Assembly: GCF_003334815.1 (NCBI RefSeq)
Contig: NZ_QOWO01000001.1
Strand: one strand, 5' to 3'
From: Escherichia coli
Lineage (GTDB): Bacteria; Pseudomonadota; Gammaproteobacteria; Enterobacterales; Enterobacteriaceae
Length of the DNA stretch: 64,000 bases
Every line of letters starts with the position of its first letter. Within the stretch, counting starts at the first letter, position 1. Both the position numbers and the translations under genes were made by a program. The notes under the pieces are model-generated. The model had not been told where the DNA came from, made no database searches, and worked only from the letters and a program-made list of their open reading frames with translations. Below are positions 3,272 to 58,667 of this stretch, one piece after another.

Positions 3272-3813
3272 AACGGATAATAACAGGATGCCTGCTGCTG
3301 AACTTCGCCATGGCCGCTCAGGCAGAGTGTAATATCTCCAGTAGCATACAAAATATCGACTATGGCAAACGAAGTGCTGCCATGCGCCAAGTTGACCGGG
3401 GTAAAACAACACAATTAGCAGACAGAACAATCACGCTGGTAATGCAATGCGATCAGGACGCTCATATTCGTGTTCAGTTGAATACCGCTAATATTTCCAA
3501 CAACGGATTTGGATTTGGCCCGAATGGTTCATTAAATCTGATCGCCAGCGATGCATTTTCAGGTAGTAACAATCTCGACCTGGCGTTAGCCAGTGGCAAA
3601 AATGACAATCCGGGCAGCACAGGAACAGCATCAATTAGTACTTCCCCCAATAATTGGCTGGTGTTTATGCAAAATGGTCAAGAAGTGGTAATTGATAGCG
3701 GTAAAAGCGTTAGCCTCACACTGACAATGGCTCCAGCTTTTAAGGATGAAGGGGAACTAACCGACATGACAGATATTACAGGCAATCTGACGGTCCTGGT
3801 GGAGGCAAAATGA
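3262..3813 (+). CDS. yhcE: Fimbrial-like protein, apparently intact
   Basis: ORF track 183 aa with signal-peptide-like N-terminus; position after the usher; no IS interruption visible. Confidence 0.7.
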   Translation: MPMKRIITGCLLLNFAMAAQAECNISSSIQNIDYGKRSAAMRQVDRGKTTQLADRTITLVMQCDQDAHIRVQLNTANISNNGFGFGPNGSLNLIASDAFSGSNNLDLALASGKNDNPGSTGTASISTSPNNWLVFMQNGQEVVIDSGKSVSLTLTMAPAFKDEGELTDMTDITGNLTVLVEAK

Positions 3814-27466: not shown

Positions 27467-28927
<1,461 letters not shown>

Positions 28928-28956
28928 TTAGTTACTGCAGTAGAGGATTTTTTACG

Positions 28957-29190
28957 GCTGCCGGATGCGGCGTGAACGCCCTATCCAGCCTACGGTTATG
29001 TTCCGGTTTGTAGGCCTGATAAGACGCACAGCGTCGCATCAGGCAACGGCTGTCGGATGCGGCGTAAACGCCTTATCCGACCTACGGTTATGTTCCGTTT
29101 GTAGGCCTGATAAGACGCACAGCGTCGCATCAGGCAACGGCTGCCGGATGCGGCGTGAACGCCCTATCCGATCTACGGTTATGTTCTGGC
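28957..29190. repeat. REP/BIME array: three tandem copies of a ~78-bp unit built from REP palindromes
   Basis: gccggatgcggcgtgaacgccctatcc...tgtaggcctgataagacgcacagcgtcgcatcaggca repeated three times with point differences. Confidence 0.9.
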
Positions 29191-29250
29191 TCGTTGGCCT
29201 TTGGCAACGATTATCCTATGAGATTGGGGCAATTACGCGCCCTCGTCAAA

Positions 29251-32200
29251 TCATTGCGCTTTTTCTTTACGCGGTTGGCGCAACACTTCGTTGATTTGCG
29301 GATCGTCCAGCGGACCCGAAATGTGATAGCGCAAAATGGAGACTTTGCTCCACAGCGGCCCCAGCACTTTACTGGCGGCAAACACTGCCGCGCCAACAAT
29401 GGGGTTAACCGCAAAAGCCGCAGCCACGCCCACCGTCGCAGAAATCTCTGGTGCGACAACCGCTTCCATATTCAGGTCGCGACGTACCAGATTTACCGAC
29501 CCTTTCATGGCGATATCCGCCTCCAGGCCATCCACCAGCGTGTCGTCGGTGTGCATAACGCCGTCTTTAATCCACGCGGTGCTGCGAATGGAGTCAAAAT
29601 AGAACCCTTCGCCAAAAGTGTCTCTGAAATCAAAACGCAGCTTACGCATCAGGGCATCTACGCTCAATAAGCGCAGCAATTGCCCGGCATGTCCGGTATT
29701 GATTTCGGTAATTTCGCCTTTACCCAGTTGAGTATGAATGATGCCATTCAACGTCGCTTCATCTGGCTGCCAGGGTGCTTTGCGCCAGTGTAAATCGTAA
29801 TCCACATTAAATGACGACTGGCGTATGGGCGTCGTGACACCAAAAAATTCTGCGGCGGCATCAATTTTCTGCCCGCGCAGTTTTCCTTTCAGCGAGGTAC
29901 GTTCATTCCCCGGATTATTAACCCATTCACCATCGGCAGTAAGCCGCGAGAAACCAGTATCAATCAGTCCATTGGTCAGCGTTAACGTATCGCCAGAAAT
30001 GGTGATATCACTGTCAATGCGACCGAATTTTTGCCCCCAGAACCAGCACTCTGTGCATCGTATTTGGGCGTCCGGCCAGCCACGGAAGTTAATGCGCTCC
30101 GTTGTCGGGAAAGGTGATGACGGCGTTGAATCACCACGAGTTTTCGCCACGCTCGGGTTGTAATAAAGATATTTGATATTCGCCAGCCACGGCGCGTTAT
30201 TACGCATCGCTAGCGTGGCGTTGATTTCACGCCCTTGCGCTTCAACCAGGGTGCCATTTGCCGTCGGTTGCGAAACAATACTCAGGTTATTCCATTGCTG
30301 ATTTCCCAGTGACAACATAGGCGTACGTAACGTTATGTGTTGTGGGAAACTCGCTGCACCACCGACACTCTCCGCAGCGCCTTTCTGGAACAGGGCCAGC
30401 CACTCGGCACCATTCATCGGCGGCATATTGAGTTCAACGCCACTTTGTTCCGGCAACGGCGGGAGCGTTTTACTGTCTGCCGCCCAAATAGCACGATCGA
30501 GCGTCAGCTTTTGACCGAGCAACCAGCGGCTATTGAAATGATTATCCGCACCAGCCTGTCCGGTTAATTCAAAGCTGTTGAGATTGCCATCAACCTTAAC
30601 GTTTACCGCTAGTGGTTCACCCGCAGGTTTGGCTAACGGTGAAGGTAAGTGACTGCTCACATTCTTTAGATCGCCGTTCAGCTCTATGTTATAGGTCGCA
30701 CCAGCATGATAAGGCAGATCAATGCCCACTTTACCATCCCACGCCACGCTGCCACTCAATGCTTCGTTCACCGCTTCAGGCAGAACGCCGGTTTTCGCCG
30801 GTTGCCAGTTACCGTTGAGGTTTACCGCTACCTGGTAGGCTTTTGCCCCTTCTTTGGTGGAAAAATCCACGTTCAACGGCTGATTAAACCAGCTTGCTGT
30901 CAGTGGTTCACTTTGCAGATCGCTATTGATAAAGCTGAATTTACCGCTCAAATTTTTCAGGGTGCTGTCGAGTGGTTTGATAAACAGACTGTTATTACGC
31001 AGCGTCACTTCACCTTTCGCGGTTACCAGTTCGCCGTTCAGCGGGATATCAAGATGTAAGCGAGCATTCACATCGCCGTCGAGCTGGAGTTCTTGCAGGG
31101 TCGCACCCAGAGAATCTTTCAGCGGTGTCTCATCAAAGTAAGGGCCAACGGCTTTACCCGGACCTTTAATGTCAGCGTCAATCAGCAGTTTTTCTTTTGA
31201 GTAGTCAGGGATCACTGCGGTAAGATTACTCGCGCGCACGCCGCCCAGATTAACGCCATCGGTTTTCATCCATAAACCGTCGTTAATAAAGTCCAGTTCA
31301 ATATCAAGGTTAGTTAATGCAGGCCAGTCCGGCTGGAAGGCAAACTTCGCGTTGCGCAGCGGCACCAGCACTTCAAACTGACCTTCGTTGTGTTTATAGG
31401 GGAAGAGTTGCGGATTGCCACCATAAACCAGCGTCGCGTTATCCGCTTCACCGCCCTGAATCGCGCCACTTAAGTAATCAACCAGGTCTTTACCCATCAA
31501 GTTTTCCGGGAAATAGCGCCAGGCTTGTGAACCATCATCGGTACTGATGCCAGCCAGAATACCCAGCCAGGGTTCATCGTTAGCAGGTTGCAGGTAACGA
31601 AAACCGCCGCGCGCATGGACGGCTTTGGCTTTAACGTCAATATTACGCCCATCCAGCTGGAAACCTTTGTTATTGTTCAGCCAGCTTATAGTTGCCTGGC
31701 CGTCGGCGATTTCTAGTGGCGCACGGAATACCGTTTCGTAAGGCATCTTTGCCTGCTTCATCGACGCGGTAAGCAAACCATTTTCAACGCTGCCGGAAAG
31801 CGTCCCGGAGAAGTGTTCCGCACCCGGTAATAATTTCCATTGCTTCCAGGCCAGATCGCTCCACGATGCCTGAAAACGGGTCTTGTCTGCCGCCTGAAGC
31901 GGGATATCCAGCGCCAGAGTGTTAATCTTGCCGCTCGGTTGTGTGGAGCGCCAAACATCACCCAGTGCAGGTGAAAGTTTCGCGGCCAGCGGGCGTATGC
32001 CCTCCAGGCCTGCCAGCTCCAGATTACTGGCGCGAATCCGGAGTTCGTCACTGCGTTTATTGTCTTTGCCGCCAACGTCCTGTTCCGGTATCCAGGCCAG
32101 CGTCAATGCTCCGCTCGGCCAGGGTTTGCCGTCCATCGTGATCCGTGTATCGGGAATAGAGAACTGCCAGCCCGGATTTTCACGCGTAATATGCGCGGTC

Positions 32201-33051
32201 AGATTATCCACCGACAGCGTATGCGTTTGCTTCTCGCCCAACCAGCTGGCACCGCCCTGTTTCAGCCAGACGTCACCGCCGGTTACATCGCCTTTGTCGA
32301 TCGTCATCCAGCCTTCAAGGGAGAACTGTGCCGTTTCCAGCGCAATATTGTCCTGCATCCATTTACCGAGCCACGGCTTCAGGTCGATGTCATCCGCCTG
32401 GAGCCAGACGCGACCATTGCTTAACAACCCCTCATCATCGCGCAAATCCATGCGCACCTGCATCACGCCGTGCTGTCCGGTAAGGCTGGAGAGGCTTACC
32501 AGGCCTTCCGCACGGTGTCGACGTGGATCGTTCAGCCAGGTGAGTTGTGGGATCGCCAGCTCGGCGCGCTGACCGGATGGCGTCAGGAAACTGACTTCAC
32601 TGTCGCGAAGATCGAAATGGTCAAATTGACGAAGAAACAGATCGCTGATGTGACTGGCTTCCAGACTGTCATCACTACCACCGCTGGTGATAGGAGTGTT
32701 GGTGCGAAAGCGCAGCTGCCAGAAAGTGAGGTCGCGAAACTGCCAGCGCATATGTAACAGGCTCTGCCAGACATCCAGCGCCAGAGTAACGCGTTTAACC
32801 GAAAATTCGCCGCCATCTTTTAGTTCTGCACGGATGTCGTGTGCTTCAAGCGTCGGGCCAAAATTCTGCCAGCTGGCTGAGAGCTGACTGGCTTCTACCG
32901 GCATGCCAGTCGCGGATTCTATTTTGTTGAGGATTTCCGGACGCCAGGCGTCAAGATGCGGTAAAGCAATACGCAGGCCGCTAACCAGCAGGGCAGCGAT
33001 CACAACGAGCGCGGCTCCAGTAAGCAGTAAAATCCCCGGCAATCGCCTCAC
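29251..33051 (-). CDS. yhdP: AsmA-like envelope lipid-transport protein YhdP
   Basis: ORF track 1266 aa; N-terminal TM anchor; recognised YhdP. Confidence 0.93.
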   Translation of the reverse strand: MRRLPGILLLTGAALVVIAALLVSGLRIALPHLDAWRPEILNKIESATGMPVEASQLSASWQNFGPTLEAHDIRAELKDGGEFSVKRVTLALDVWQSLLHMRWQFRDLTFWQLRFRTNTPITSGGSDDSLEASHISDLFLRQFDHFDLRDSEVSFLTPSGQRAELAIPQLTWLNDPRRHRAEGLVSLSSLTGQHGVMQVRMDLRDDEGLLSNGRVWLQADDIDLKPWLGKWMQDNIALETAQFSLEGWMTIDKGDVTGGDVWLKQGGASWLGEKQTHTLSVDNLTAHITRENPGWQFSIPDTRITMDGKPWPSGALTLAWIPEQDVGGKDNKRSDELRIRASNLELAGLEGIRPLAAKLSPALGDVWRSTQPSGKINTLALDIPLQAADKTRFQASWSDLAWKQWKLLPGAEHFSGTLSGSVENGLLTASMKQAKMPYETVFRAPLEIADGQATISWLNNNKGFQLDGRNIDVKAKAVHARGGFRYLQPANDEPWLGILAGISTDDGSQAWRYFPENLMGKDLVDYLSGAIQGGEADNATLVYGGNPQLFPYKHNEGQFEVLVPLRNAKFAFQPDWPALTNLDIELDFINDGLWMKTDGVNLGGVRASNLTAVIPDYSKEKLLIDADIKGPGKAVGPYFDETPLKDSLGATLQELQLDGDVNARLHLDIPLNGELVTAKGEVTLRNNSLFIKPLDSTLKNLSGKFSFINSDLQSEPLTASWFNQPLNVDFSTKEGAKAYQVAVNLNGNWQPAKTGVLPEAVNEALSGSVAWDGKVGIDLPYHAGATYNIELNGDLKNVSSHLPSPLAKPAGEPLAVNVKVDGNLNSFELTGQAGADNHFNSRWLLGQKLTLDRAIWAADSKTLPPLPEQSGVELNMPPMNGAEWLALFQKGAAESVGGAASFPQHITLRTPMLSLGNQQWNNLSIVSQPTANGTLVEAQGREINATLAMRNNAPWLANIKYLYYNPSVAKTRGDSTPSSPFPTTERINFRGWPDAQIRCTECWFWGQKFGRIDSDITISGDTLTLTNGLIDTGFSRLTADGEWVNNPGNERTSLKGKLRGQKIDAAAEFFGVTTPIRQSSFNVDYDLHWRKAPWQPDEATLNGIIHTQLGKGEITEINTGHAGQLLRLLSVDALMRKLRFDFRDTFGEGFYFDSIRSTAWIKDGVMHTDDTLVDGLEADIAMKGSVNLVRRDLNMEAVVAPEISATVGVAAAFAVNPIVGAAVFAASKVLGPLWSKVSILRYHISGPLDDPQINEVLRQPRKEKAQ

Positions 33052-48054: not shown

Positions 48055-48351
48055 ATGTTCGAACAACGCGTAAATTCTGACGTACTGACCGTTTCTACCG
48101 TTAACTCTCAGGATCAGGTAACCCAAAAACCCCTGCGTGACTCGGTTAAACAGGCACTGAAGAACTATTTTGCTCAACTGAATGGTCAGGATGTGAATGA
48201 CCTCTATGAGCTGGTACTGGCTGAAGTAGAACAGCCCCTGTTGGACATGGTGATGCAATACACCCGTGGTAACCAGACCCGTGCTGCGCTGATGATGGGC
48301 ATCAACCGTGGTACGCTGCGTAAAAAATTGAAAAAATACGGCATGAACTAA
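48055..48351 (+). CDS. fis: Nucleoid-associated protein Fis
   Basis: ORF track 98 aa; exact Fis sequence ([15 protein letters not shown]...KKYGMN). Confidence 0.98.
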
Positions 48352-48363
48352 AGTCAAGCTGTA

Positions 48364-48373
48364 ACGGCATGAA
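48364..48373. repeat. Left copy of the 10-bp direct repeat ACGGCATGAA (candidate attL core)
   Basis: Exact match to 57684-57693; 13 bp after the fis stop. Confidence 0.55.
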
Positions 48374-48375
48374 AT

Positions 48376-48408
48376 TAAAGGGGCTATTTCAGCCCCTTTA
48401 CTTTTTGT
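48376..48408 (+). terminator. Rho-independent terminator serving fis; lies inside the island boundary
   Basis: aaaggggctatttcagcccctttactttttgtt, located between the left direct repeat and the tape-measure stop. Confidence 0.75.
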
Positions 48409-48428
48409 TGCAACCGTACTGACAACCC

Positions 48429-50702
48429 TTATGGTGTTTGCGCGCCATCTATCATCATGCTTCGCTGCCTTACTGCTTGTTGCTGTCGTAGTTGCTGTAT
48501 CACCTTCCGGGCTAATGCATCTTCATTCATACCAGGTTCTGCCTTCACGCTGATGTGGTACTGGTCGTTGCTATGCACCGTAGTGCCACCAGAGCGGTTG
48601 GCCAGTGCAGGTGACGGCAGGGCAGCACCAGAGGCAGTGGTTGCTGCTGGCTGCTGTACATCGTCGCGGAATGGTGCGGTAAAGAAATCTTTGGTTTTCT
48701 GCCACGCACCACCAGCAACATCAGACACGGCGTTTTTAAACTCCAGTGCCTTGTTGGTCAGGTTGCCAATGTTGTCAGAAACCCAAATGATCTTATCAAT
48801 CAGGAACGTGATCGGTGCGGTCACAAGCTCGATGCCAGCCGCCAGGGTCTTACCGAACGTCATCCCCATTTTACCGGCCTTATCCAGTTCCTCGCCGCTG
48901 TATTTGACCGGTTCGGTCAGTGACGTGAACCAGTTGAAAGCCGTCTTAACCGCAGCGCCCACGCCATCAATGACGGGCTTCAATGGCCCCATGCGCTCAT
49001 ACAGGCGATGCAGGGCATCGCTAAGCGGTTCCAGCCCGGATTTGATACCTTCACCCACGCCACCAAAAAAAGCCTTCACACCAGCCCAATGGCGGTAAAT
49101 CTGATAACCTGCCAGCGCCAGGCCAGCTACGGCAGCACCAACGCCAGTGGAAATGAACGCCGCACCGATGGCGCGCACGCCGGTAGCCACCGCAGGCAGG
49201 CCACGAGTGCTGGCCAGAACGGCGGATGCGTTCATGCGGGCAAACAGGCTGGACACGTTCAGCAATCCGCCTTTCAGGAACGTGAACGCAAAGCCAGCGG
49301 CGAACGTCGCCACACGCAGTGCCACCAGTGCACTGGAACCAATAACCACTGCTTTGGTCACGGTAGGGTATTCGCGCGCCAGTTCGGCAACCTTGCCGAT
49401 AACCGGGCCAACGGTAGCCAGAACGCCGTTGAATGCTGGCAGCAGCACTGTGCCGATCGTGACGCCCAGGTTAGACACACGGTTGTTGAAAATCTTAAGC
49501 TGCGCCGACGTTTTGGCGGTGGCTGCCTCATATTCAGCCTGCATAGAACCGGCATATTTGGTCTTGTCTTTGACCATATCCAGATTCTTTTGGTACGTAT
49601 CAAGCTGTGTCAGCATTGGTGCGATAGCGCCAATCGATTCCTTACCAAACAGTTGCGAAAGCGTTGCCGCCTGCATGTGTTTTGGCAGCTTGCTGATCTT
49701 GGACAGGATGACGCGGATTGTTTCATCGGCGTTCAGTTGCATTGATTTTGCAACCTGCTTGGATGTGAAGCCAAGCTGTTTAAACGCTTCACGCTGTGAC
49801 TTCGTGGCGGATGCGCCAGCGGTCAGGGATAGCAGCAGGTTTTTAATACCGGTGGCCGCAATCTCATTCTGCACGCCCATACCGCGCAGCGTTGCACCCA
49901 TCGCAGCGATAGAACCGGAAGCTGCACCAGCGACGCTGCCAAGTGGCCCGATGCGCTGCGTGATTTCCAGGATGTCTTTGGCTGATGCGGCGGTGTTGTT
50001 GCCCAGGTAGTTGATCTTGTCGGCCAGAACGTTCATCTGGTCCTGCGTCATCCCGAAGGCGGCGCGCATCTCTGCCATTGCCTGGCCTGCCTGGTCGGCG
50101 CTGACGTCAAAAGCCACACCCATTTTGATGGCCGATTCAGCAAACTTGGTTAGTTCGCTGGTGGCGATGCCTGATTGAGCACCAGCGGCAACAATCTTGC
50201 CGATTTCGTTGGCTGCCATCGGCATTTTGGTTGACATATCCTGGATAGCCTGGCCCATCTTAACCAGGCCGTCAGGGGTTTCGAAGTTGGCAACCTTGCG
50301 GATATCTGCCAGCGTATCTTCAAAATCCATAGCCTGTTTGATCGGTACAGCTACCGTTGCGCCAAGTGCGACAGTCCCCAGGATTCCTTCTTTGTAGCCT
50401 TGACGCTTCGCCAGGTTGCGTTCGCGGGCATCCTCCACGCGTTTCAGGCGTTCGGTGGCAGAACGAAGGCGTTCAACCTGCCCGACAACCGTTTGATAGC
50501 GGTCCTTCATGCGGGAGAATATCGCGCTATCCTGGCCATAACGCTTCATTGCTTCATTTAACTGGCGCTGTTCGCGCGACAGCTTAGAGATTGCGCTACC
50601 AATCTCGACGGTATTTTTCTTTACAGTTCCAAATGCACCACGAAGGCTGCCGGAAACGGCCCCACCAATCGTGATTGTTGCATTTAACTTCTTGTTGGCC
50701 AT
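48429..50702 (-). CDS. Phage tail tape measure protein (TP901-family core-like)
   Basis: ORF track 757 aa; N-terminal coiled coil, Ala/Gly-rich core (GNNTAASAKDILEITQRIGPLGSVAGAASGS...), hydrophobic C-terminal segments; called on recognised family features, not a search. Confidence 0.75.
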   Translation of the reverse strand: MANKKLNATITIGGAVSGSLRGAFGTVKKNTVEIGSAISKLSREQRQLNEAMKRYGQDSAIFSRMKDRYQTVVGQVERLRSATERLKRVEDARERNLAKRQGYKEGILGTVALGATVAVPIKQAMDFEDTLADIRKVANFETPDGLVKMGQAIQDMSTKMPMAANEIGKIVAAGAQSGIATSELTKFAESAIKMGVAFDVSADQAGQAMAEMRAAFGMTQDQMNVLADKINYLGNNTAASAKDILEITQRIGPLGSVAGAASGSIAAMGATLRGMGVQNEIAATGIKNLLLSLTAGASATKSQREAFKQLGFTSKQVAKSMQLNADETIRVILSKISKLPKHMQAATLSQLFGKESIGAIAPMLTQLDTYQKNLDMVKDKTKYAGSMQAEYEAATAKTSAQLKIFNNRVSNLGVTIGTVLLPAFNGVLATVGPVIGKVAELAREYPTVTKAVVIGSSALVALRVATFAAGFAFTFLKGGLLNVSSLFARMNASAVLASTRGLPAVATGVRAIGAAFISTGVGAAVAGLALAGYQIYRHWAGVKAFFGGVGEGIKSGLEPLSDALHRLYERMGPLKPVIDGVGAAVKTAFNWFTSLTEPVKYSGEELDKAGKMGMTFGKTLAAGIELVTAPITFLIDKIIWVSDNIGNLTNKALEFKNAVSDVAGGAWQKTKDFFTAPFRDDVQQPAATTASGAALPSPALANRSGGTTVHSNDQYHISVKAEPGMNEDALARKVIQQLRQQQAVRQRSMMIDGAQTP

Positions 50703-50723
50703 AATAATTGTGCTCTCAAGGAA

Positions 50724-50930
50724 TTAATTAAGTAAATTTTCTGCAAGGGTGTGTTCACCGATTGCCCGCAAGGCGGCAGCGGCCAGTTGCAGGGCGCATT
50801 CGGTGCGGTAGTCTCGCTGTTTCTGCATTTCCTCCGCTGTGTTGCACGCCAGAACTTTTGGCAGGACCATATCCACCAGTTCAGGCCAGGGGTTTGTTCC
50901 TTCCGGTTTTGTGTGAATACGGTCCAGCAT
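50724..50930 (-). CDS. Small hypothetical protein immediately upstream of the tape measure gene (possible tail assembly chaperone)
   Basis: ORF track 68 aa; same strand and tight spacing within the operon; no recognisable motif. Confidence 0.4.
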   Translation of the reverse strand: MLDRIHTKPEGTNPWPELVDMVLPKVLACNTAEEMQKQRDYRTECALQLAAAALRAIGEHTLAENLLN

Positions 50931-50939
50931 GGTGCCCCC

Positions 50940-51257
50940 TTATGCACTCCGTACCAGGATAGCGCCGCGCTTCACCGCCTGGCGTTTGGCCCGTTCACCG
51001 GAACTGATGCGGCTGGATGGTTGCCACTTCGTGCGTCCCAGGGCGGATGCGTGGCTTTCCGCTTCGTCACGCATGATGCGGCCCGCTTCATCGGTCATGT
51101 GTTCGAATGCGTTTAAACGGTTGCGAAGGCTTGCCAGCAGGTCGGCTGCTTCGTAGCTGATAGGGTTTTTCTCTGAAATGGTTTGGAAACGCTTTGTTTC
51201 GCTAAGGATCAAACGCGCTTCTTCTTTCATTGATTCGTACAGGTCATGTTTTTTCAT
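50940..51257 (-). CDS. Hypothetical protein (possible tail assembly chaperone); start uncertain
   Basis: ORF track 149 aa (50940..51389); preferred start at the internal MKKHDLYESMKEE (ATG at 51257, ~104 aa) because the upstream extension is low-complexity. Confidence 0.4.
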   Translation of the reverse strand: MKKHDLYESMKEEARLILSETKRFQTISEKNPISYEAADLLASLRNRLNAFEHMTDEAGRIMRDEAESHASALGRTKWQPSSRISSGERAKRQAVKRGAILVRSA

Positions 51258-51471
51258 AGTATTGGCCGCTAACAATAGTTGTTGATGATTAAGTGAGTGC
51301 GCGCTTTTAGGTGACAGGTGCGGCGCAACCGGTGTGGAATTAGTGGTGGTTTTGACCGTCCAGGATGACCACCAACCTGGTTCCAGCATCCATCGTCTGA
51401 GGAACGATGAAGGTTAAATTTGGCCGGTTATTTGGGGCACAGGGAACCGGTGAAACCTGTATTCTTGGCCA

Positions 51472-51636
51472 TTATTTGCCGTTCAGCCCGCTACTCAGAA
51501 ACTTTTCAATCACCTGGCTGCGTGAAGGGCGGATGCCTGTTCTGCGTTCCAGTTTGGCTTGCTCTCTTTCGACCTGGCGCACCAGGTCAGGGGCGAGGCG
51601 TACCGTTACGTGCTGGCGTGTTTCTTGTCGTTTCAT
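51472..51636 (-). CDS. Ribbon-helix-helix (CopG/Arc-like) DNA-binding protein, 54 aa; absent from the ORF track (below length cutoff)
   Basis: Hand-translated: MKRQETRQHVTVRLAPDLVRQVEREQAKLERRTGIRPSRSQVIEKFLSSGLNGK; beta-strand then two helices typical of RHH; starts 3 nt after the upstream gene stop. Confidence 0.55.
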   Translation of the reverse strand: MKRQETRQHVTVRLAPDLVRQVEREQAKLERRTGIRPSRSQVIEKFLSSGLNGK

Positions 51637-51639
51637 GGC

Positions 51640-51960
51640 TTAGTACCTGTTCATCCAGCTTTCGCGCTTCTGTTTCGGGCGCTGCTCGCGGTAGTGACTG
51701 CGCACCAGGGAAGCGAGGTAATTCACGGCGCGTTCAATCTGGTACTGCTTAAGCTCCGGGTAAGCCTTGCGAATCCATTTTTCAGCAGCGTCATCGCTGT
51801 AGATGAATCCTGACCAGCCAACCGGCTGCACTACGATGCGCGGTGTGTTTTCATCACCGTGGCGCACATACATGGCCACACCTTCGATAGCTGCCAGGAT
51901 TTCACCCGGCAGGGCAGCGCGCTCCGCTGCCGCTTTTTTGCTGCCCCACCACATGATCAA
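51640..51960 (-). CDS. Hypothetical protein, ~105 aa, translationally coupled to the downstream RHH gene
   Basis: ORF track 106 aa; TTG or ATG start overlapping the stop of the upstream 294-aa gene. Confidence 0.45.
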   Translation of the reverse strand: MIMWWGSKKAAAERAALPGEILAAIEGVAMYVRHGDENTPRIVVQPVGWSGFIYSDDAAEKWIRKAYPELKQYQIERAVNYLASLVRSHYREQRPKQKRESWMNRY

Positions 51961-52841
51961 GCCTTCCAGAACATAGTTGAGTCAGGCACCAGTGCGGATG
52001 CGTTCACCCACACAACGATTTCAACGGCACCATTCAGCACGCGGCGGGCGGTGACGCGGATTTCATCATCCAGGGCAACGGCTGCATTGCCGAAAGCGCC
52101 AATGATTGTGCTGGAAGTCTGGCCGCTGATTTCAGCGCGTACACCGTAGGCACGCAGAACGCCGTCTTGCAGTTCCAGGCCGGTGCAATCACCGCCAACA
52201 ATGGCTTTAACTTCATCAAAGCGCAGGTTTTTGGCTGCAATCTTCTGCGCCACTGCGGTGAATGACGGGCTGGCCAGCGTTTCCGCTGCGGTTTCCAGGT
52301 GGTTCAGCAGTACGAAATCAGCCAGGTCAGCAATTCCGCGTTCAATGGCGGTGTTGACCACTTCCAGCGTGGTATCGTCTGCGAAGTCGTGTTTCATCTG
52401 CTTGCGGCTAAGGGTGTAGCCCACGCCGTAAGCCGGTGCGTTGTTGTGGTTGAACGCTGATACCAGGTAAGGCAGGCCGCTCATGGTGATTTCTTCGCCG
52501 TCAGCCACTTTGGCGAACGCACCAGGGCGAACGACAACGAAGCGGTCAGCCACTTCGCGGCCAGTCGTTGCGCCGGTGTTGCCAGTCGGAGGCGTGGTCA
52601 TCGGGCCAGGGATGCGGATGATTTCAGCGCCTGCCTGTGCCACCAGTGAACGTTCAGCCAGAACAGCGTTGAAGGTGGTCTGCTTGCCGCCTTTCGGGGT
52701 CAGCACGTCATTCATGGACAGGTAGCGAACTGCTGCAGGTTCCACAGGGATGAATTGAGTAATGTCACCGTTGCCATCAGTGCGAATGTGGCCGCCCTGG
52801 TGGTTCAACGCGTCGTTGATAAGTTGAGATAAAACGTTCAT
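51957..52841 (-). CDS. Phage structural-like protein, 294 aa (major tail- or capsid-like; unassigned)
   Basis: ORF track 322 aa; start moved to MNVLSQLINDAL (ATG at 52841), which has a GGAG RBS 8 nt upstream; first gene of the minus-strand operon ending in the tape measure. Confidence 0.4.
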   Translation of the reverse strand: MNVLSQLINDALNHQGGHIRTDGNGDITQFIPVEPAAVRYLSMNDVLTPKGGKQTTFNAVLAERSLVAQAGAEIIRIPGPMTTPPTGNTGATTGREVADRFVVVRPGAFAKVADGEEITMSGLPYLVSAFNHNNAPAYGVGYTLSRKQMKHDFADDTTLEVVNTAIERGIADLADFVLLNHLETAAETLASPSFTAVAQKIAAKNLRFDEVKAIVGGDCTGLELQDGVLRAYGVRAEISGQTSSTIIGAFGNAAVALDDEIRVTARRVLNGAVEIVVWVNASALVPDSTMFWKA

Positions 52842-53229
52842 TAAAAATGCTCCGGTTGTTGTGCAATAAATCGTCTGGAATGACTTAAAGATATACAGTA
52901 ACCAGGCCGAACACAATAGCCACAATGTGAGCTTTTTAATGTAAAATCAGTAACTTATAACCATGAATACTTGCAAATAACCAGGCATAATCCGGCGTAA
53001 TCGATATTTACACATCTTTACAATTCAGCGTGTGTAAAACGTGTTCGCTTTATTTTGCAATCTCGCAAGTATGGTTCCAGTGCTTTGATAGGATTCACAT
53101 AAATGATTGATTTACTTGACGTAATCATAAAGTGAGTTTTGTAGGGGCACGCACAACGCGAATTACGCGGGACCAATGCCCCCGCAGGCTGTACCCCCCT
53201 CGGAAGTACCTTGACTTTTTTGGCAGCAG

Positions 53230-53540
53230 ATGGCGATGACACCTAATGTCACCATGACGGCGTTATGTTGGAAAGGTGTCATTAGGTGTCATAGCGGGAA
53301 ACACGCTGATTATTAAAGAAAAATACAAACAAGATAATGTAATGAATGACACCTGTGACACCATGACACCCATTTCTATAAAGTATAACGACCACTGTTA
53401 CATTATCACAGTGGTCGTTATTTTCTTTAAAAATGCTGTCATAGGTGTCATAGGTGTCATTAGTAATGTCGCAACCCTTGCGGGTTATGGCTTGAGAACA
53501 ATGACACCTGCCATGACACCTTATAAATTAATGACACCTA
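53230..53540. repeat. Iteron array: at least 10 perfect copies of the octamer ATGACACC/GGTGTCAT in both orientations, with a central 9-bp-arm palindrome; probable replication origin
   Basis: Perfect copies start at 53236, 53275, 53285, 53346, 53363, 53444, 53453, 53501, 53513 and 53531; variants at 53246, 53355 and 53435; palindrome gaccactgt-N9-acagtggtc at 53390-53416; located 3' of the primase gene. Confidence 0.7.
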
Positions 53541-53607
53541 GGCGTCACTTTGAAAATAAAAAAAGCCCCGGCATTCGCCAGGGTAATGGGCAACAACTGT
53601 TGTGATG

Positions 53608-53832
53608 TTATGATCGGATGAACGGCAAGATTTCAGCGGAATCCACTACCCTTATGCGGTAGCTGCATAGCAGGTTTTCACCCAACTTGGCCAGTTCCTG
53701 CTGCACCTCTGGCAGCCTATTGCGAGCATGGTCTACCGCTTCCTGTTCAGTGGCGAAACCCTCCATAATTTCGGTTTCGGTGTAGGTGCCGTGTTCCGGG
53801 TCAAAAGCAATGATATATGCGCGATAACTCAT
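53608..53832 (-). CDS. Small hypothetical protein between the primase gene and the iteron origin
   Basis: ORF track 74 aa; GAGG RBS 6 nt upstream of the ATG. Confidence 0.5.
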   Translation of the reverse strand: MSYRAYIIAFDPEHGTYTETEIMEGFATEQEAVDHARNRLPEVQQELAKLGENLLCSYRIRVVDSAEILPFIRS

Positions 53833-53841
53833 AGTATTACC

Positions 53842-55530
53842 TCAAAACTGGTGGTTAGGCCCATCAAAATAGCGATGGTCTTGCTGTCCAAAAACTTTCG
53901 GTGGCATTAGGTAAAAACGCCCTTTACTTGTTCTACGTGCATCCCTTCCTGTCAGTTTTCGCAGAATGTTACCGCACTGCGTTGCCTGGGATTTTGTTGG
54001 CCGATCCTGCCCAATAGACAACAGAACATCCGTTGCAGTCATTTCTATATATGCAGCCAGGCGATCACTGTTCCAATCAAAACGCGCCAATATCATTTCT
54101 TCAATCGGGTCAGTTTGCCCGTGCTGTTCGTTCACGACTTCCAGCATGGCTTCTTCATCACGGTCCAGCCACCAGCGTTCACCTGCTTCAAACCAGGAAA
54201 GAACTTCGGCCCATAATTGTTGTGTGTCTATGCCATGCTCGTAGTTAACGGCAGTTACAGGAATGGTCCACCAGCGCACGTTCCCGGTGTCATCCGCCAG
54301 GAAGTGTTTCGGGTTCACTGACGCAAAAAACACGGTGCGGCGCTGGTACTTCGATTCAAGCCGGTCATAAGGGCGGCGCAGGTCATCACGGTCCTGGCTG
54401 ATAAATGCTTTGAGCTTGGCAATATCCGCCTTGCGAAACGTCGCATCCAATTCGCCTAGCTCAACAAGCCAGTGACTAATTGCGCTGGCCACGCTGTCTT
54501 TATTGCCGGGGTCAATAGTTGCTCCCACCTTAACCAGGTTGCGATTGTCAGGGGGCAGAAGCGCTTTAAACCATGCTGTTTTACCCAGTGACTGCTCGCC
54601 CTGGAAAACCAGCACGCCTTTGGACCAGAAACCCGCTTCTAAGTAAGCAGCCGCCACGGCAGACAGCAACCAACGACGCACCAGCATGGCCAGCAGATCG
54701 CGACTGTAGTCATCTGGCGTGCTGATAGTATTCAGCAGGTCTGCAAATCGGCTTCGTCCATCCCATTCACGTTGATTGATGAAATCCCTGACAGGATTAT
54801 AAGTATTGCGCACAGCGATAGTTTTGATATGACCTTCAATATTACTCATTGGTAACCGGTTCAGTGCGGCGAGGCTTAAAATTTCACTCACAGCGCAGTT
54901 ATCGCGAGCATCTGAACCGCCACTAACGCCAGGTACTAAAACCTCAACGTCCTTGCTAATCTCATTATATTTTGCAGAAATGCTGTAGTTATCTAATAGA
55001 CGTTCAACATTAGGGCGTGTGTTTAAAGGCTGGCCATTGCTTCCAATATTTGGCCAGGTTGTCATTAATACAGGAGCCATATCGTGAATGTCTTTTACAG
55101 TTGCTGCGGCGGTTGCTCGTTCTTCTTTGCGCAGCATGCCCACCAGGCTTTCACCGCGTAGGGCGGCGTCTCTAAGCCTGTCCATGTTCCATTTTTCCGG
55201 TTCACGGTCAGTAATGCCTTTAAATAAACGGGCTTCCTTAACTCCAGCCACTGCCAGCTTGTCAGCAATAGTGCTGATTTGAAGTTGCTTAATATCACCA
55301 GCCAGATATACCCGCGCAGACCGGCGACCATCGTCGATAATTCGTAGATTATCTAAATCATCCAGTTGTCTTGGCCCAAGGTAGACAGGAGGAGTAGTGT
55401 CACCGGCAACTTGTTTACCCATTCCTTCTTCCCAGCCCTTGGCATGGCTCCAAGCGTCAGAACCGGCAAAAATAATTGCTTCCGTAAAAGGGTCTTTAGG
55501 TAATAGCTTAACGTTAGGCGCGTTTCTCAT
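53842..55530 (-). CDS. Satellite-type primase / replication initiator with P-loop NTPase domain
   Basis: ORF track 562 aa; Walker A motif GEQSLGKTAW; sits between alpA and the iterons as in P4 alpha / PICI pri-rep arrangements. Confidence 0.65.
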   Translation of the reverse strand: MRNAPNVKLLPKDPFTEAIIFAGSDAWSHAKGWEEGMGKQVAGDTTPPVYLGPRQLDDLDNLRIIDDGRRSARVYLAGDIKQLQISTIADKLAVAGVKEARLFKGITDREPEKWNMDRLRDAALRGESLVGMLRKEERATAAATVKDIHDMAPVLMTTWPNIGSNGQPLNTRPNVERLLDNYSISAKYNEISKDVEVLVPGVSGGSDARDNCAVSEILSLAALNRLPMSNIEGHIKTIAVRNTYNPVRDFINQREWDGRSRFADLLNTISTPDDYSRDLLAMLVRRWLLSAVAAAYLEAGFWSKGVLVFQGEQSLGKTAWFKALLPPDNRNLVKVGATIDPGNKDSVASAISHWLVELGELDATFRKADIAKLKAFISQDRDDLRRPYDRLESKYQRRTVFFASVNPKHFLADDTGNVRWWTIPVTAVNYEHGIDTQQLWAEVLSWFEAGERWWLDRDEEAMLEVVNEQHGQTDPIEEMILARFDWNSDRLAAYIEMTATDVLLSIGQDRPTKSQATQCGNILRKLTGRDARRTSKGRFYLMPPKVFGQQDHRYFDGPNHQF

Positions 55531-55795
55531 ATCGCACCCCGCGTTTTAACTCCAGATACATCGCCCATGATTCAGAATCGCTGATGCGAAACGGCACCAG
55601 GCTATCAGCCATAGCGGCGTGACGTGAAACAATAGTCCACGGGCGGTTTACACCTTCGCGAATGCATGCTTGCAACAATAATTGTGCTGCCGCCATACGC
55701 TGGGCGGTAAGTTCGCCAACGGTTAACTGGCGCTGTGGGTTACGCAACAGGCTGTTATAGCGACTGATAGCCTGATTTACGGTTGTTTTCTTCAT
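55514..55795 (-). CDS. Small hypothetical protein directly upstream of the primase gene, overlapping its start
   Basis: ORF track 93 aa; GAGGTGG RBS; 17-nt overlap with the primase start. Confidence 0.5.
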   Translation of the reverse strand: MKKTTVNQAISRYNSLLRNPQRQLTVGELTAQRMAAAQLLLQACIREGVNRPWTIVSRHAAMADSLVPFRISDSESWAMYLELKRGVRYEKRA

Positions 55796-55803
55796 AAGCC
55801 ACC

Positions 55804-55983
55804 TCAGCGCTGTACTGGCTGGCGGCTTTCAAGCCACGCCATAACATCTTTGCGCCGCCAGGCCACGCGTTTTGGCCCTAATTTTATGCAATTAGGAAAC
55901 GTGCCAGCCTGGATATAGCGCCAGATAGTCATGCGGGATAATGTTGTTAGTGTTGTGACTTGCTTAGCAGTCAGTAATTCCAT
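55804..55983 (-). CDS. alpA: AlpA-family phage transcriptional regulator (MerR-like HTH), 59 aa; absent from the ORF track (below length cutoff)
   Basis: Hand-translated: MELLTAKQVTTLTTLSRMTIWRYIQAGTFPNCIKLGPKRVAWRRKDVMAWLESRQPVQR; classic AlpA signature; GAGGG RBS. Confidence 0.7.
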   Translation of the reverse strand: MELLTAKQVTTLTTLSRMTIWRYIQAGTFPNCIKLGPKRVAWRRKDVMAWLESRQPVQR

Positions 55984-56277
55984 CTTACGGCCCTCAAAAC
56001 ATGGCCGGTGGATATGTGGTCTGTAATGATTTATGATTATGTTGCGTTAACAAAGAACGCGACCATTACAGCCTTCACCGGCTTTTTGGTATTAAGGGGT
56101 TCGGTTTTCTGTTTGGCGACGTGAACCGATCCCCGCCTTATTCAAGCCCTCAGTTCTGCTGGGGGCTTTTTATTACTACATGACAATAATACTCAAATTG
56201 TATCAGCAGTAAATACCCTTTAAATTCATAAACTTAACTGCAAATAACGCTACATAACTCTATATAATCATCAATTT

Positions 56278-57513
56278 TTAATTATCTGATTTTAAAAGGT
56301 TTATTTTTTCTAAATATTTTATCCATTTGTCCAAGGCTAACCGTTTTTCCGGGATGTACTGGCTACGGTTGTACACCGCCATCACTCCTGGCATTGAGTG
56401 GCCCAGCAACTGTTCAACCACATGCGGGGCTATCCCCAAGTTATTTAGACTGGTGGCAAAAGTGCGGCGCAGGTCATGCAACGTCCACGGCGTTGAATGC
56501 TCTAATCGTCTGTATAAGATACGCCCCCACTGGCTGACAGCTTCGGGTTTCTTCATTTCACCAAGCAGCATTCCGCTATCAAGATGATTTTGGCGTAGCT
56601 GTAAAATAAATGGCTGTATAGATTCAGGCACGGGTCTGATGATTTTCTCCCCACCCTTGCTATGTTCTCGCGGAACTGTCCAAATCCATTCTTTCACGTT
56701 CCATTCCGACCATGTCGAAAGACGAATTTCTTGTGTTCTTGCACCAAACACTATTAGCAATTTTAAAAGCGCGGTGTAGTAAGGTAGAAACGCATATTCG
56801 CTTTTTAGCGCATTCCAAAGGCCACTAAGTTCTTCAGAAGTTAAAACACGATCACGTTTTGCCTGCTTTCTTCCAACATCAGTAACTTTGATATCCTCCA
56901 GCGCATCACTGTAAACATCGTGCAGCCTGCGGTTGTGAATCAACGCCTGCTTGCAGTTACCTAATATGTAGCCGCTTGCTACCGGCGCGACTTTTTTGAT
57001 TCTGCTAAATGTCTCCATCCATCTTGCTTTAGAGCACTGTTCAAGTGGCAATTCGCCGATGAAAGGATAAATATGTCTTTCGAATTGGCGTCTATGCCTT
57101 TCAAAGTTGACCCGGTTTTCCGCCGCGTACTCATTAATCCAGCGTTCCAATGCTTCCCTGATAGTGACAGGTTTCATGGTTTTTGCTGACTCTTGGTCAA
57201 ACTGGTCTTTAGGATCTAGATTATGAGCAAGCCACCGTTTGCATTGGTCGCGTTTCACCCTCGCCTCAGCAAGAGATAAGGCAGGATACTTGCCCAGCAC
57301 TAGCGTCAAAGTATTGGCGCTTTTATGCTTATTCTTATAACGGAACAACCATTGGATGTTATTGGCCGGTCTCTTCTCGCCATCAAGGATTTTGCGCCTT
57401 GATGGTGTAACGCGAACAGAAAGGCTGCCACCGTCAGCAACATCAAAAGGTTTTTCGATGACTTTGCGGGTTAACGCACGCAATTGAACATCTGAGAGTT
57501 TATTTTCGGCCAT
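56278..57513 (-). CDS. int: Tyrosine recombinase, P4-type integrase family
   Basis: ORF track 435 aa; start taken at MAENKLSDVQLRAL (ATG at 57513, 411 aa); P4-integrase-like N-terminus (DGGSLSVRVTPSRRK) and C-terminal catalytic motifs (HDLRRTF...LGHS...VYNR...Y). Confidence 0.85.
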   Translation of the reverse strand: MAENKLSDVQLRALTRKVIEKPFDVADGGSLSVRVTPSRRKILDGEKRPANNIQWLFRYKNKHKSANTLTLVLGKYPALSLAEARVKRDQCKRWLAHNLDPKDQFDQESAKTMKPVTIREALERWINEYAAENRVNFERHRRQFERHIYPFIGELPLEQCSKARWMETFSRIKKVAPVASGYILGNCKQALIHNRRLHDVYSDALEDIKVTDVGRKQAKRDRVLTSEELSGLWNALKSEYAFLPYYTALLKLLIVFGARTQEIRLSTWSEWNVKEWIWTVPREHSKGGEKIIRPVPESIQPFILQLRQNHLDSGMLLGEMKKPEAVSQWGRILYRRLEHSTPWTLHDLRRTFATSLNNLGIAPHVVEQLLGHSMPGVMAVYNRSQYIPEKRLALDKWIKYLEKINLLKSDN

Positions 57514-57683
57514 AGAGTTAATGACAACCTTTTTGACAACTGTATGCAGGGAGTAACTGATAACTGATGATACAATGCGAGCCAATAAAAAATAAATATC
57601 TCTTTCCGCATCAATTATTTATGATGAATACAAATTATCTAGAGTGATAATAAATTACGTATAATGACTCTGTATTTTACAAT

Positions 57684-57760: not shown

Positions 57761-57782
57761 AGGTGTCACAAAGGGAGTGACC

Positions 57783-58667
57783 ATGAGAACAGGATGTGAA
57801 CCGACCCGGTTTGGTAATGAAGCTAAGACCATTATTCACGGTGATGCGCTTGCCGAACTTAAAAAGATCCCCGCCGAAAGTGTCGATCTGATCTTTGCCG
57901 ACCCACCATATAACATCGGTAAAAATTTTGATGGTCTGATCGAAGCCTGGAAAGAAGATCTGTTTATCGACTGGCTGTTTGAAGTGATTGCAGAGTGCCA
58001 CCGCGTTCTGAAAAAGCAGGGCAGCATGTACATCATGAACAGTACGGAAAACATGCCCTTTATCGATCTCCAGTGCCGCAAGCTTTTTACCATCAAAAGT
58101 CGCATCGTCTGGTCATATGACAGTTCTGGAGTGCAGGCGAAAAAACACTACGGCTCCATGTACGAACCCATCCTGATGATGGTGAAAGACGCAAAGAACT
58201 ACACATTCAACGGTGATGCTATTCTGGTAGAAGCCAAAACCGGATCGCAGCGCGCGTTGATCGATTATCGCAAAAATCCTCCACAGCCTTACAATCATCA
58301 AAAAGTACCGGGTAACGTTTGGGATTTTCCGCGCGTGCGTTATTTGATGGATGAATATGAAAACCACCCGACGCAAAAACCGGAAGCCTTACTGAAACGC
58401 ATTATTCTCGCCTCTTCCAACCCAGGCGATATCGTTCTCGACCCGTTTGCTGGTAGCTTTACTACCGGTGCCGTAGCCATCGCCAGCGGACGAAAATTCA
58501 TTGGTATTGAGATCAACAGCGAGTACATCAAAATGGGGCTTCGACGGCTGGATGTCGCGTCGCATTACTCTGCGGAAGAACTGGCGAAAGTGAAAAAAAG
58601 AAAGACCGGCAACCTGTCAAAACGAAGCCGGTTAAGCGAAGTTGACCCCGATCTCATTACAAAGTAA
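57783..58667 (+). CDS. yhdJ: DNA adenine methyltransferase YhdJ
   Basis: ORF track 296 aa (GTG at 57777); ATG at 57783 taken as start; DPPY motif (FADPPYNIG). Confidence 0.93.
   Translation: MRTGCEPTRFGNEAKTIIHGDALAELKKIPAESVDLIFADPPYNIGKNFDGLIEAWKEDLFIDWLFEVIAECHRVLKKQGSMYIMNSTENMPFIDLQCRKLFTIKSRIVWSYDSSGVQAKKHYGSMYEPILMMVKDAKNYTFNGDAILVEAKTGSQRALIDYRKNPPQPYNHQKVPGNVWDFPRVRYLMDEYENHPTQKPEALLKRIILASSNPGDIVLDPFAGSFTTGAVAIASGRKFIGIEINSEYIKMGLRRLDVASHYSAEELAKVKKRKTGNLSKRSRLSEVDPDLITK

What the first reader, a model, noticed from the sequence alone, without database searches (positions are those of the whole stretch)
28957..29190. Three-copy REP/BIME array between tldD and yhdP
Classic REP palindromes are arranged as three near-identical ~78-bp units. 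The array explains the spurious ORFs in the track here. It is an ordinary E. coli feature but a potential hotspot for IS insertion and mRNA stabilisation.
Basis: partly seen in the sequence, partly recalled or inferred. Interest (0 to 1): 0.2.

Follow-up and report, generated by a model that had tools for sequence, protein, structure and literature searches.

The report
Known REP (BIME-2) array between yhdP and tldD
This is an ordinary, already described E. coli repeat: five small palindromes in the gap between the genes yhdP and tldD, whose number varies between strains (one, five or seven) and which earlier work showed to be a strong DNA gyrase cutting site.

Summary
The repeat is real and far beyond chance. 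Window 28954-29200 holds 2.7 copies of a 91-92-bp unit, not three ~78-bp units. The copies contain five REP palindromes in alternating orientation (Y, Z2, Y, Z2, Y), joined by 15-16-nt and 7-nt linkers with no IHF site. That is a BIME-2. It lies in the 338-bp gap between the yhdP stop and the tldD start; both genes are on the minus strand. The transcribed strand gives two Rfam naRNA4 (RF02564) matches above the gathering score. Each REP folds into the canonical bulged hairpin (-15 to -20 kcal/mol). Among 5,426 complete E. coli genomes, about two thirds carry one Y REP here, about one third carry seven REPs (MG1655 included), and a few percent carry five, as in this window. One strain has IS1397 inserted exactly in the REP loop. 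Topo-Seq work (Sutormin et al.) names this tldD-yhdP BIME-2 as holding multiple gyrase cleavage sites. Best reading: a gyrase site in the DNA and a hairpin stack in the yhdP 3'UTR RNA that stabilises upstream mRNA and attenuates read-through into tldD; the RNA role is inferred by analogy with REP325. Already known; low interest.

The parts
29251..33051 (-). yhdP coding sequence (upstream gene; stop codon at 29251-29253)
   Evidence: 1266-aa ORF; annotated yhdP in RefSeq records that match the region
29177..29250 (-). 74-nt unique spacer between the yhdP stop and the first REP; contains a small bulged hairpin at about 29190-29210, conserved in all alleles examined
28954..29200 (.). Tandem array: 2.7 copies of a 91-92-bp unit (the BIME-2)
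   Evidence: TRF period 91, score 417; spacings 92/91; unit boundaries 28954-29045, 29046-29136, 29137-29200
29143..29176 (-). Y-type REP (Y3), GTAG foot on the minus strand; carries a rare T at 29172 that breaks the foot base pair and creates the only GATC in the spacer
   Evidence: 3 mismatches to consensus; hairpin -15.0 kcal/mol against -18.7 with the common C; T shared by 1 of 5,426 genomes
29101..29135 (+). Z2-type REP (Z2b), inverted relative to the Y REPs (GTAG foot on the plus strand)
   Evidence: hairpin -20.2 kcal/mol; aligns to the Z2 hairpin of the Rfam naRNA4 model
29052..29085 (-). Y-type REP (Y2)
   Evidence: hairpin -18.8 kcal/mol
29010..29044 (+). Z2-type REP (Z2a), inverted
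28960..28993 (-). Y-type REP (Y1); the copy that corresponds to the single REP of most strains
   Evidence: 2 mismatches to consensus; identical to the sole REP of strain SC487; hairpin -19.2 kcal/mol
29013..29082 (-). Y2 + 7-nt linker + Z2a pair: match to Rfam naRNA4 (RF02564), 77.3 bits (gathering score 59.5)
29104..29173 (-). Y3 + 7-nt linker + Z2b pair: match to Rfam naRNA4, 65.1 bits
28913..28959 (-). 47-nt unique leader between the last REP and the tldD start codon
27467..28912 (-). tldD coding sequence (downstream gene)
   Evidence: 481-aa ORF; RefSeq annotation

Best explanation
The feature is the known BIME-2 element of the yhdP-tldD intergenic region. It consists of five REP palindromes (Y, Z2, Y, Z2, Y) in alternating orientation with short linkers. 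In the DNA it is a strong, largely transcription-independent binding and cleavage site for DNA gyrase; this was shown experimentally for this locus in E. coli W3110. In the RNA it is transcribed as the 3' untranslated tail of yhdP. There its five stable bulged hairpins most likely block 3'-to-5' exonucleases, which protects yhdP mRNA, and partly stop RNA polymerase (Rho-assisted attenuation) before tldD. This RNA role is inferred by analogy with REP325 and other BIMEs. The array grows and shrinks in whole 91-bp units, by unequal recombination or slippage and possibly by the REP-associated transposase TnpA-REP. This gives alleles of 1, 5 and 7 REPs among strains. Its REP loops are specific targets for IS1397.
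For: Shown here:
- Repeat period and extent.
- Three matches to the published REP consensus, 0 expected by chance.
- Inverted Z2 REPs between the Y REPs.
- Canonical hairpins with an internal mismatch, -15 to -20.2 kcal/mol.
- Linkers of 7 and 15-16 nt, and no IHF consensus inside the array.
- Two Rfam naRNA4 hits above gathering score, on the strand that yhdP and tldD are read from.
- Location between two same-strand genes.
- No intrinsic-terminator-like site and no sigma-70-like promoter match in the spacer.
- Alleles that differ by exact unit multiples: 155-, 338- and 429-bp spacers.
- IS1397 inserted in the loop of the Y REP with a GTGA duplication in strain BH100.

From the literature:
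- BIME-2 is defined as y plus z2 REPs in tandem copies with short linkers, and copy number at a locus varies between strains (PMC3333891).
- That paper's table lists this element (307 bp) with 35/13/3/10 cleavage sites in four conditions, against 6/4/0/5 for sucB-sucC.
- REP325, a 12-REP Y/Z2 array between same-strand genes, acts as a partly Rho-dependent terminator and as a stabiliser of the upstream mRNA. REP-containing same-strand gene pairs show upstream-biased expression genome-wide (bioRxiv 10.64898/2026.03.23.713779).
Against: No expression, RNA 3'-end or half-life data for this locus were available here, so the stabiliser/attenuator role is by analogy only. The same preprint stresses that REP effects depend on context and that terminal REPs do not uniformly lengthen half-lives. 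Gyrase data come from the 7-REP allele of W3110, not the 5-REP allele in this window. Whether tldD is read through from yhdP or has its own promoter is unknown; the consensus scan found none, but that scan is crude. Some copy-number differences between assemblies, including among K-12 stocks, could be assembly collapse of a 91-bp repeat rather than biology.
Confidence: 0.9

Rival explanations
1. The array is a gene for trans-acting nucleoid-associated small RNAs (naRNA4-like) that, together with the protein HU, bridge REP cruciforms and condense the chromosome.
For: Two matches to Rfam RF02564 (naRNA4) above the gathering score on the transcribed strand.
Against: The Rfam model is in effect a Y+Z2 REP pair, so any BIME-2 will match it. 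A 2026 study found that deleting or overexpressing REP325 or naRNAs does not change nucleoid volume, that no stable HU-cruciform-naRNA4 complex forms, and that there are no REP-REP long-range contacts. Two thirds of E. coli genomes carry a single REP here and so cannot make such an RNA from this locus.
Confidence: 0.04
2. The array has no selected function. It is selfish or neutral repeat DNA, a by-product of REP-transposase activity and replication slippage, tolerated in a non-essential spacer.
For: It is absent as an array from about two thirds of genomes. Close relatives that share the same rare fis-yhdJ island carry 1, 5 or 7 REPs. K-12-derived assemblies also differ, at 5 against 7. TnpA-REP cleaves and recombines BIMEs in vitro.
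Against: This concerns origin more than effect and is compatible with the best explanation. Gyrase cleaves this element heavily in vivo. Five hairpins of -15 to -20 kcal/mol in a transcript are unlikely to have no physical effect.
Confidence: 0.3
3. The region encodes a small protein (the 109-aa ORF at 28965-29294 on the + strand, or one of the shorter ORFs).
For: the ORF listing reports about ten ORFs of 25-109 aa overlapping the array on both strands.
Against: The 109-aa ORF runs antisense into yhdP. Its peptide repeats itself after 61 residues because two units total 183 bp. It cannot exist in single-REP strains. No RefSeq annotation of ten genomes examined calls a gene here.
Confidence: 0.01
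4. The array is a simple intrinsic (Rho-independent) terminator of yhdP.
For: It consists of G+C-rich hairpins downstream of a stop codon.
Against: No hairpin is followed by a T-run, and the terminator scan found no site in the spacer (sequence). The literature states that most REPs lack the poly-U tract.
Confidence: 0.03

Closest known systems
The tldD-yhdP BIME-2 of E. coli K-12 MG1655/W3110 (the same locus)
   Same: Same flanks, same Y and Z2 sequences, same linkers and same position. The window aligns base for base with MG1655 apart from one missing unit and one SNP. This locus is listed as 'BIMEs2' and named as a gyrase cleavage hotspot.
   Different: MG1655 has seven REPs in a 429-bp spacer; the window has five in 338 bp, an in-register 91-bp deletion. 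The window also has T instead of C at 29172. No genome among the 5,426 combines five REPs with that T.
REP325 / naRNA1-6 (yjdM-yjdN BIME-2; Rfam RF02564 naRNA4)
   Same: Alternating Y and Z2 REPs between two same-strand genes, transcribed with Y first and then Z2. The covariance model scores 77.3 and 65.1 bits here, above the 59.5 threshold.
   Different: REP325 has 12 REPs in 77-nt Y-l-Z2 units with a 13-nt linker and a separate spacer. Here the pair is 70 nt with a 7-nt linker (a 6-nt gap in the model alignment), a 15-16-nt second linker and five REPs. The functional data (terminator plus stabiliser) exist for REP325 only.
BIME-1 (RIB/RIP elements: Y + Z1 REPs around a long L linker with an IHF site)
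   Same: Built from the same REP superfamily, in inverted pairs, at the 3' ends of genes.
   Different: BIME-1 is single-copy with a long linker that frequently carries an IHF site. Here the element is in tandem copies with short linkers, the Z REPs are of Z2 type, and the IHF consensus is absent from the array.
malE-malF and other single-REP mRNA stabilisers
   Same: REP hairpins in an intercistronic or 3' untranslated RNA that can block 3'-to-5' exonucleases (summarised).
   Different: Those are one or two REPs with direct decay data. This locus has five REPs and no decay data. The first REP starts 74 nt after the stop codon, so it lies outside the class of REPs within 15 nt of a stop codon that are linked to translational control.

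Membership tests
REP (repetitive extragenic palindrome / palindromic unit) of E. coli | Match to the REP consensus sequence | tested here: met
   GCCGGATGCGGCGTGAACGCCTTATCCGGCCTAC (consensus quoted in PMC12306157) matches three times with 2-3 mismatches; 0 matches in 100 shuffles
REP (repetitive extragenic palindrome / palindromic unit) of E. coli | 30-40-nt imperfect palindrome with a conserved internal mismatch | tested here: met
   All five fold alone. Y: 7-bp stem, 2x2 internal loop, 4-bp stem, 4-nt loop. Z2: 8 bp, 1x1 mismatch, 5 bp, 3-nt loop. Energies -15.0 to -20.2 kcal/mol, z-scores -2.3 to -5.3
REP (repetitive extragenic palindrome / palindromic unit) of E. coli | Conserved GTAG tetranucleotide 5' of the hairpin foot (CTAC on the other strand) | tested here: met
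   Present at all five REPs (sequences); feature as defined in PMC3333891
REP (repetitive extragenic palindrome / palindromic unit) of E. coli | Extragenic location | tested here: met
   Lies wholly within the 338-bp spacer between tldD and yhdP
BIME-2 | Composed of y and z2 REPs in alternating (REP/iREP) orientation | tested here: met
   Order Y, Z2 (inverted), Y, Z2 (inverted), Y. The Z hairpins align to the Z2 hairpin of the naRNA4 model. The locus is listed as BIME-2 in PMC6379681. The Z1/Z2 distinction by sequence also rests on my own recollection of the Z1 consensus
BIME-2 | Multiple tandem copies with short linkers, and no long L linker with an IHF site | tested here: met
   2.7 periods; linkers of 7 and 15-16 nt; no WATCAANNNNTTR match in 28950-29200. 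Assigning the linkers to Bachellier's named motifs (S, s, l, r) could not be checked because the defining papers are not held
BIME-2 | Copy number at the locus varies between strains | tested here: met
   Spacers of 155, 338 and 429 bp, equal to 1, 5 and 7 REPs
BIME-2 | Bound and cleaved by DNA gyrase in vivo | not testable with these tools
   Reported for this locus in W3110 (7-REP allele): 35/13/3/10 cleavage sites in four Topo-Seq conditions. Not measured for the 5-REP allele
Rfam RF02564 naRNA4 | Covariance-model score at or above the curated gathering score | tested here: met
   77.3 and 65.1 bits against 59.5, on the minus strand; the plus-strand scores (55.8, 47.1) fall below it
Rfam RF02564 naRNA4 | Exists as a discrete HU-associated RNA with a role in nucleoid condensation | not testable with these tools
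   No RNA data for this locus. The role itself is disputed for REP325
BIME-1 (RIB/RIP) | Single Y-L-Z1 unit with a long linker that frequently carries an IHF site | tested here: not met
   Tandem copies, short linkers, no IHF consensus, Z2-type REPs

The most novel reading that the evidence does not exclude
The number of REPs at this BIME-2 (1, 5 or 7) may act as a heritable, quickly mutating dial. It would set how much transcription reaches tldD from yhdP and how much gyrase is loaded at this site. Close relatives, and even laboratory K-12 stocks (MG1655 with 7; EMG2, WG1, MC1061 and GM4792 with 5), would then differ measurably in TldD level or local supercoiling. The rare T at 29172 weakens the first hairpin the polymerase meets by about 3.7 kcal/mol and adds a Dam site. 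It would be a further fine adjustment.
Probability: 0.12. Interest if true: 0.35.

Novelty: already known. Interest (0 to 1): 0.1.

Why it matters
It matters little as a discovery. REPs and BIMEs have been described since the 1980s and 1990s, and this exact locus is named in the gyrase-mapping literature. The practical value is in annotation. The ORFs across the array should be ignored. The Rfam naRNA4 hits should be read as 'BIME-2 unit', not as a distinct sRNA gene. The spacer length is a strain-variable marker that short-read assemblies may collapse. The locus is a convenient natural allelic series (1, 5 and 7 REPs) for testing the terminator/stabiliser model and gyrase loading.

Tried and rejected
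- **CRISPR-like or protein-repeat readings.** Rejected: there are no unique spacers, the units are REP palindromes, and the ORFs are by-products.
- **Intrinsic terminator.** Rejected: no T-tract and no hit in the scan.
- **Promoter for tldD inside the spacer.** The scan found none. By eye there is a weak TTGCCA-18 nt-CATAAC candidate on the minus strand near 29207-29178. It fails the scan's criteria and I did not pursue it.
- **Whole-spacer RNA folds.** These give long-range Y/Y and Z/Z pairings that are probably not relevant co-transcriptionally, so I relied on single-REP folds.
- **Original BIME papers.** Gilson 1991 (PMC333889) is not held, so the named linker motifs (S, s, l, r) could not be assigned.
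- **MG1655 RefSeq record.** As served here it carries no REP repeat_region features, so there was no independent annotation of REP number.
- **Supplements of the 2026 REP preprint.** They contain no per-locus entry for yhdP.
- **Literature on a yhdP-tldD operon.** The search gave nothing on transcription.
- **Other species.** I did not run a genome contigs or metagenome scan for the locus; the cost was not justified for an ordinary feature.
- **Exact allele counts.** These could not be extracted. Frequencies come from coverage classes and a 60-genome spread sample. 3-REP or 9-REP alleles were not seen in that sample but are not excluded.

Full report
**What is there**

Reading window 28700-29450 shows a G+C-rich repeat between two minus-strand genes. 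These are tldD (27467-28912, start codon at 28912-28910) and yhdP (29251-33051, stop codon at 29251-29253). RefSeq records that match the region confirm the gene names.

- Tandem Repeats Finder reports one array at 28954-29200: period 91, 2.7 copies, 90% matches, score 417.
- The direct-repeat finder gives spacings of 92 and 91 bp.
- The two full units share 86 of 92 positions. The third is a 64-bp partial copy that runs into unique sequence.

**Anatomy**

A published REP consensus, GCCGGATGCGGCGTGAACGCCTTATCCGGCCTAC (quoted in PMC12306157), matches at 28960-28993, 29052-29085 and 29143-29176 on the + strand. Each match has 2-3 mismatches, and none occurred in 100 shuffles. Between them, in the opposite orientation, lie two identical 35-nt palindromes at 29010-29044 and 29101-29135 (GCCTGATGCGACGCTGTGCGTCTTATCAGGCCTAC read on the minus strand).

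The order is therefore Y, inverted Z2, Y, inverted Z2, Y. Every REP carries the GTAG/CTAC foot.

- Linkers are 16 and 15 nt (GGTTATGTTCCG(G)TTT) between the CTAC of a Y and the GTAG of the next Z2, and 7 nt (AACGGCT) at the other junction.
- No IHF consensus lies in the array.
- Folded alone as minus-strand RNA, each REP forms the canonical bulged hairpin. Y has 7 bp, a 2x2 internal loop, 4 bp and a 4-nt loop, at -15.0 to -19.2 kcal/mol. Z2 has 8 bp, a 1x1 mismatch, 5 bp and a 3-nt loop, at -20.2 kcal/mol.
- These features match the definition of BIME-2 in PMC3333891: y and z2 REPs, tandem copies, short linkers, and copy number that varies between strains.
- No other REP of this kind occurs in the 64-kb window.

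**RNA family match**

Rfam gives two hits to naRNA4 (RF02564) above the gathering score of 59.5. Both are on the minus strand, the strand transcribed with yhdP and tldD: 29013-29082 (77.3 bits) and 29104-29173 (65.1 bits). The plus-strand scores fall below threshold. The model is a Y hairpin, a linker and a Z2 hairpin taken from REP325. The hit therefore says 'BIME-2 unit in the same transcriptional orientation as REP325', not that a distinct sRNA gene exists.

**Comparison across E. coli**

The 751-bp region matches all 5,426 complete genomes. The spacer length differs in exact multiples of the unit:

| Spacer | REPs | Examples |
|---|---|---|
| 155 bp | 1 Y REP | SC487, UPEC85 |
| 338 bp | 5 | the window, K-12 GM4792, ECNB21-M121 |
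| 429 bp | 7 | MG1655, ER1709, PG20180172, SZQ1, 52F4 |

- A query made only of the two unique flanks joined in 5,421 genomes. An evenly spaced sample of 60 of them gave 39 single-REP, 19 seven-REP and 1 five-REP alleles, plus 1 split locus.
- This agrees with 3,676 genomes (68%) whose best match covers at least 80% of the five-REP query.
- At least 60 genomes have the five-REP allele. They include W, KO11FL, LY180, BL21(RP), MC1061 and the early K-12 stocks EMG2 and WG1. K-12-derived assemblies therefore disagree, at 5 against 7 in MG1655.
- This could be real instability over laboratory timescales or assembly collapse. I cannot tell which.
- ECNB21-M121 has five REPs on a different sequence background, so the five-REP state is not a single haplotype.
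- Arrays occur mainly in genomes whose flanks are nearly identical to the window. More divergent genomes carry the single REP.
- The alignment shows that the window differs from MG1655 by an in-register 91-bp deletion and one SNP, T at 29172.
- That T is shared by only one genome, strain 52F4, which has seven REPs. It breaks the foot pair of the first hairpin that would be transcribed (-15.0 against -18.7 kcal/mol) and creates the only GATC in the spacer.

**Origin of the unit**

The single-REP allele reads TTTTTTACGGCT-[Y]-GGTTATGTTCTGGCTCG. In the arrays each added unit is CG(G)TTT-[Z2 inverted]-A followed by ACGGCT-[Y]-GGTTATGTTC. Each unit thus re-copies 6 nt and 10 nt of the unique flanks of the ancestral Y REP. 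This indicates local duplication plus acquisition of a Z2, followed by unequal exchange between units. TnpA-REP-mediated recombination, shown in vitro, is a possible agent but was not tested here.

**IS target**

Five genomes have the two flanks too far apart to be joined. In the one examined, BH100 substr. MG2014, a frameshifted IS1397-family element lies in the spacer. Its ends sit exactly in the loop of the single Y REP, flanked by a GTGA duplication (GCGGCGTGA|IS|GTGAACGCC). IS1397 is known to insert specifically into E. coli REPs (PMC1525189).

**Function**

- *Shown for this locus by others.* Sutormin et al. [quoted passage not shown] They also report that y REPs are cut more than z2, and that the REP signal rises when transcription is blocked. 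They conclude that BIME-2 behaves as a transcription-independent strong gyrase site.
- Their table lists the tldD-yhdP element (307 bp in W3110) with 35, 13, 3 and 10 sites in four conditions. sucB-sucC has 6, 4, 0 and 5, and most other elements visible in the stored passages have 0-2.
- *Inferred.* The array sits 74 nt after the yhdP stop and 47 nt before the tldD start. It has no T-tract terminator and no consensus promoter. It is therefore most probably transcribed as the yhdP 3' tail or the yhdP-tldD intercistronic RNA.
- For REP325, the best-studied Y/Z2 array between same-strand genes, recent work finds a dual role. It is a partly Rho-dependent attenuator of the downstream gene and a stabiliser of the upstream mRNA. 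That work also finds no support for the earlier nucleoid-condensation model.
- I adopt that mechanism here, with the caveat that the same study stresses dependence on context.

**Spurious ORFs**

About ten ORFs of 25-109 aa overlap the array on both strands. The 109-aa ORF (28965-29294, +) repeats its own peptide after 61 residues, because two units total 183 bp, and runs antisense into yhdP. No RefSeq annotation examined calls a gene here.

**Verdict**

This is a real, well-understood feature: the known tldD-yhdP BIME-2 in its less common five-REP allele. Its description of the unit (three ~78-bp units) needs correcting to 2.7 periods of 91-92 bp containing five REPs of two types. Novelty: already known. 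Interest: low.

**Context of the window**

Against MG1655 the window is about 99.9-99.98% identical in each aligned block. It lacks the IS5 in yhcE and carries a 9.3-kb island between fis and yhdJ. It therefore comes from a close relative of K-12, not from MG1655 itself. The genomes most similar at the island have 1 REP (UPEC85) and 7 REPs (SZQ1) at the BIME, which again shows how fast this array changes.

Noticed in passing
window 48352-57680: A ~9.3-kb island absent from MG1655 sits between fis (48055-48351) and yhdJ (57777-58667). On the minus strand it encodes a tyrosine integrase (56278-57585), a VapE-type primase/helicase (53842-55530), a 757-aa phage tail tape-measure protein (48429-50702) and several small unknown ORFs. 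There are no PADLOC hits. An integrase plus primase with one lone tail gene resembles a phage satellite or a decayed prophage. It is present at 80% or more coverage in only 47 of 5,426 complete E. coli genomes; the closest are UPEC85 and SZQ1.
   Followed up: partly
window ~3635-3638: The IS5 copy (IS5R, insH10) that splits yhcE in MG1655 is absent here, so yhcE should be intact in this strain.
   Followed up: no
window 29172: T instead of the C found in nearly all E. coli. It breaks the foot base pair of REP Y3 (hairpin -15.0 against -18.7 kcal/mol) and creates the only GATC (Dam) site in the spacer, at 29170-29173. Only strain 52F4 (1 of 5,426) shares it, on a 7-REP allele.
   Followed up: yes
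window 29190-29210: A small bulged hairpin (CGTTGGCC-TTT-GGCAACG) lies in the unique part of the spacer, roughly 40-60 nt after the yhdP stop. It is conserved in 1-, 5- and 7-REP alleles and has no T-tract. Its function is unknown.
   Followed up: no
L008 2557-3904 (E. coli BH100 substr. MG2014, NZ_CP024650.2): A frameshifted IS1397-family element is inserted exactly in the loop of the single Y REP of the tldD-yhdP spacer, with a GTGA target duplication.
   Followed up: yes
whole window compared with MG1655 (L006+L007): About 20 single-base differences over ~55 kb of aligned sequence, which is more than expected between K-12 sublines. The window appears to come from a close relative of K-12 and not from K-12 itself. 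No complete RefSeq genome matches the BIME region exactly.
   Followed up: partly
K-12-derived assemblies (one search hits H41, H49, H55, H78, H82 compared with NC_000913.3): Assemblies labelled GM4792, EMG2, WG1, MC1061 and 'MG1655-pvir' show five REPs at this locus. The MG1655 reference, ER1709 and others show seven. This is either real copy-number instability over laboratory timescales or assembly collapse of the 91-bp repeat.
   Followed up: partly
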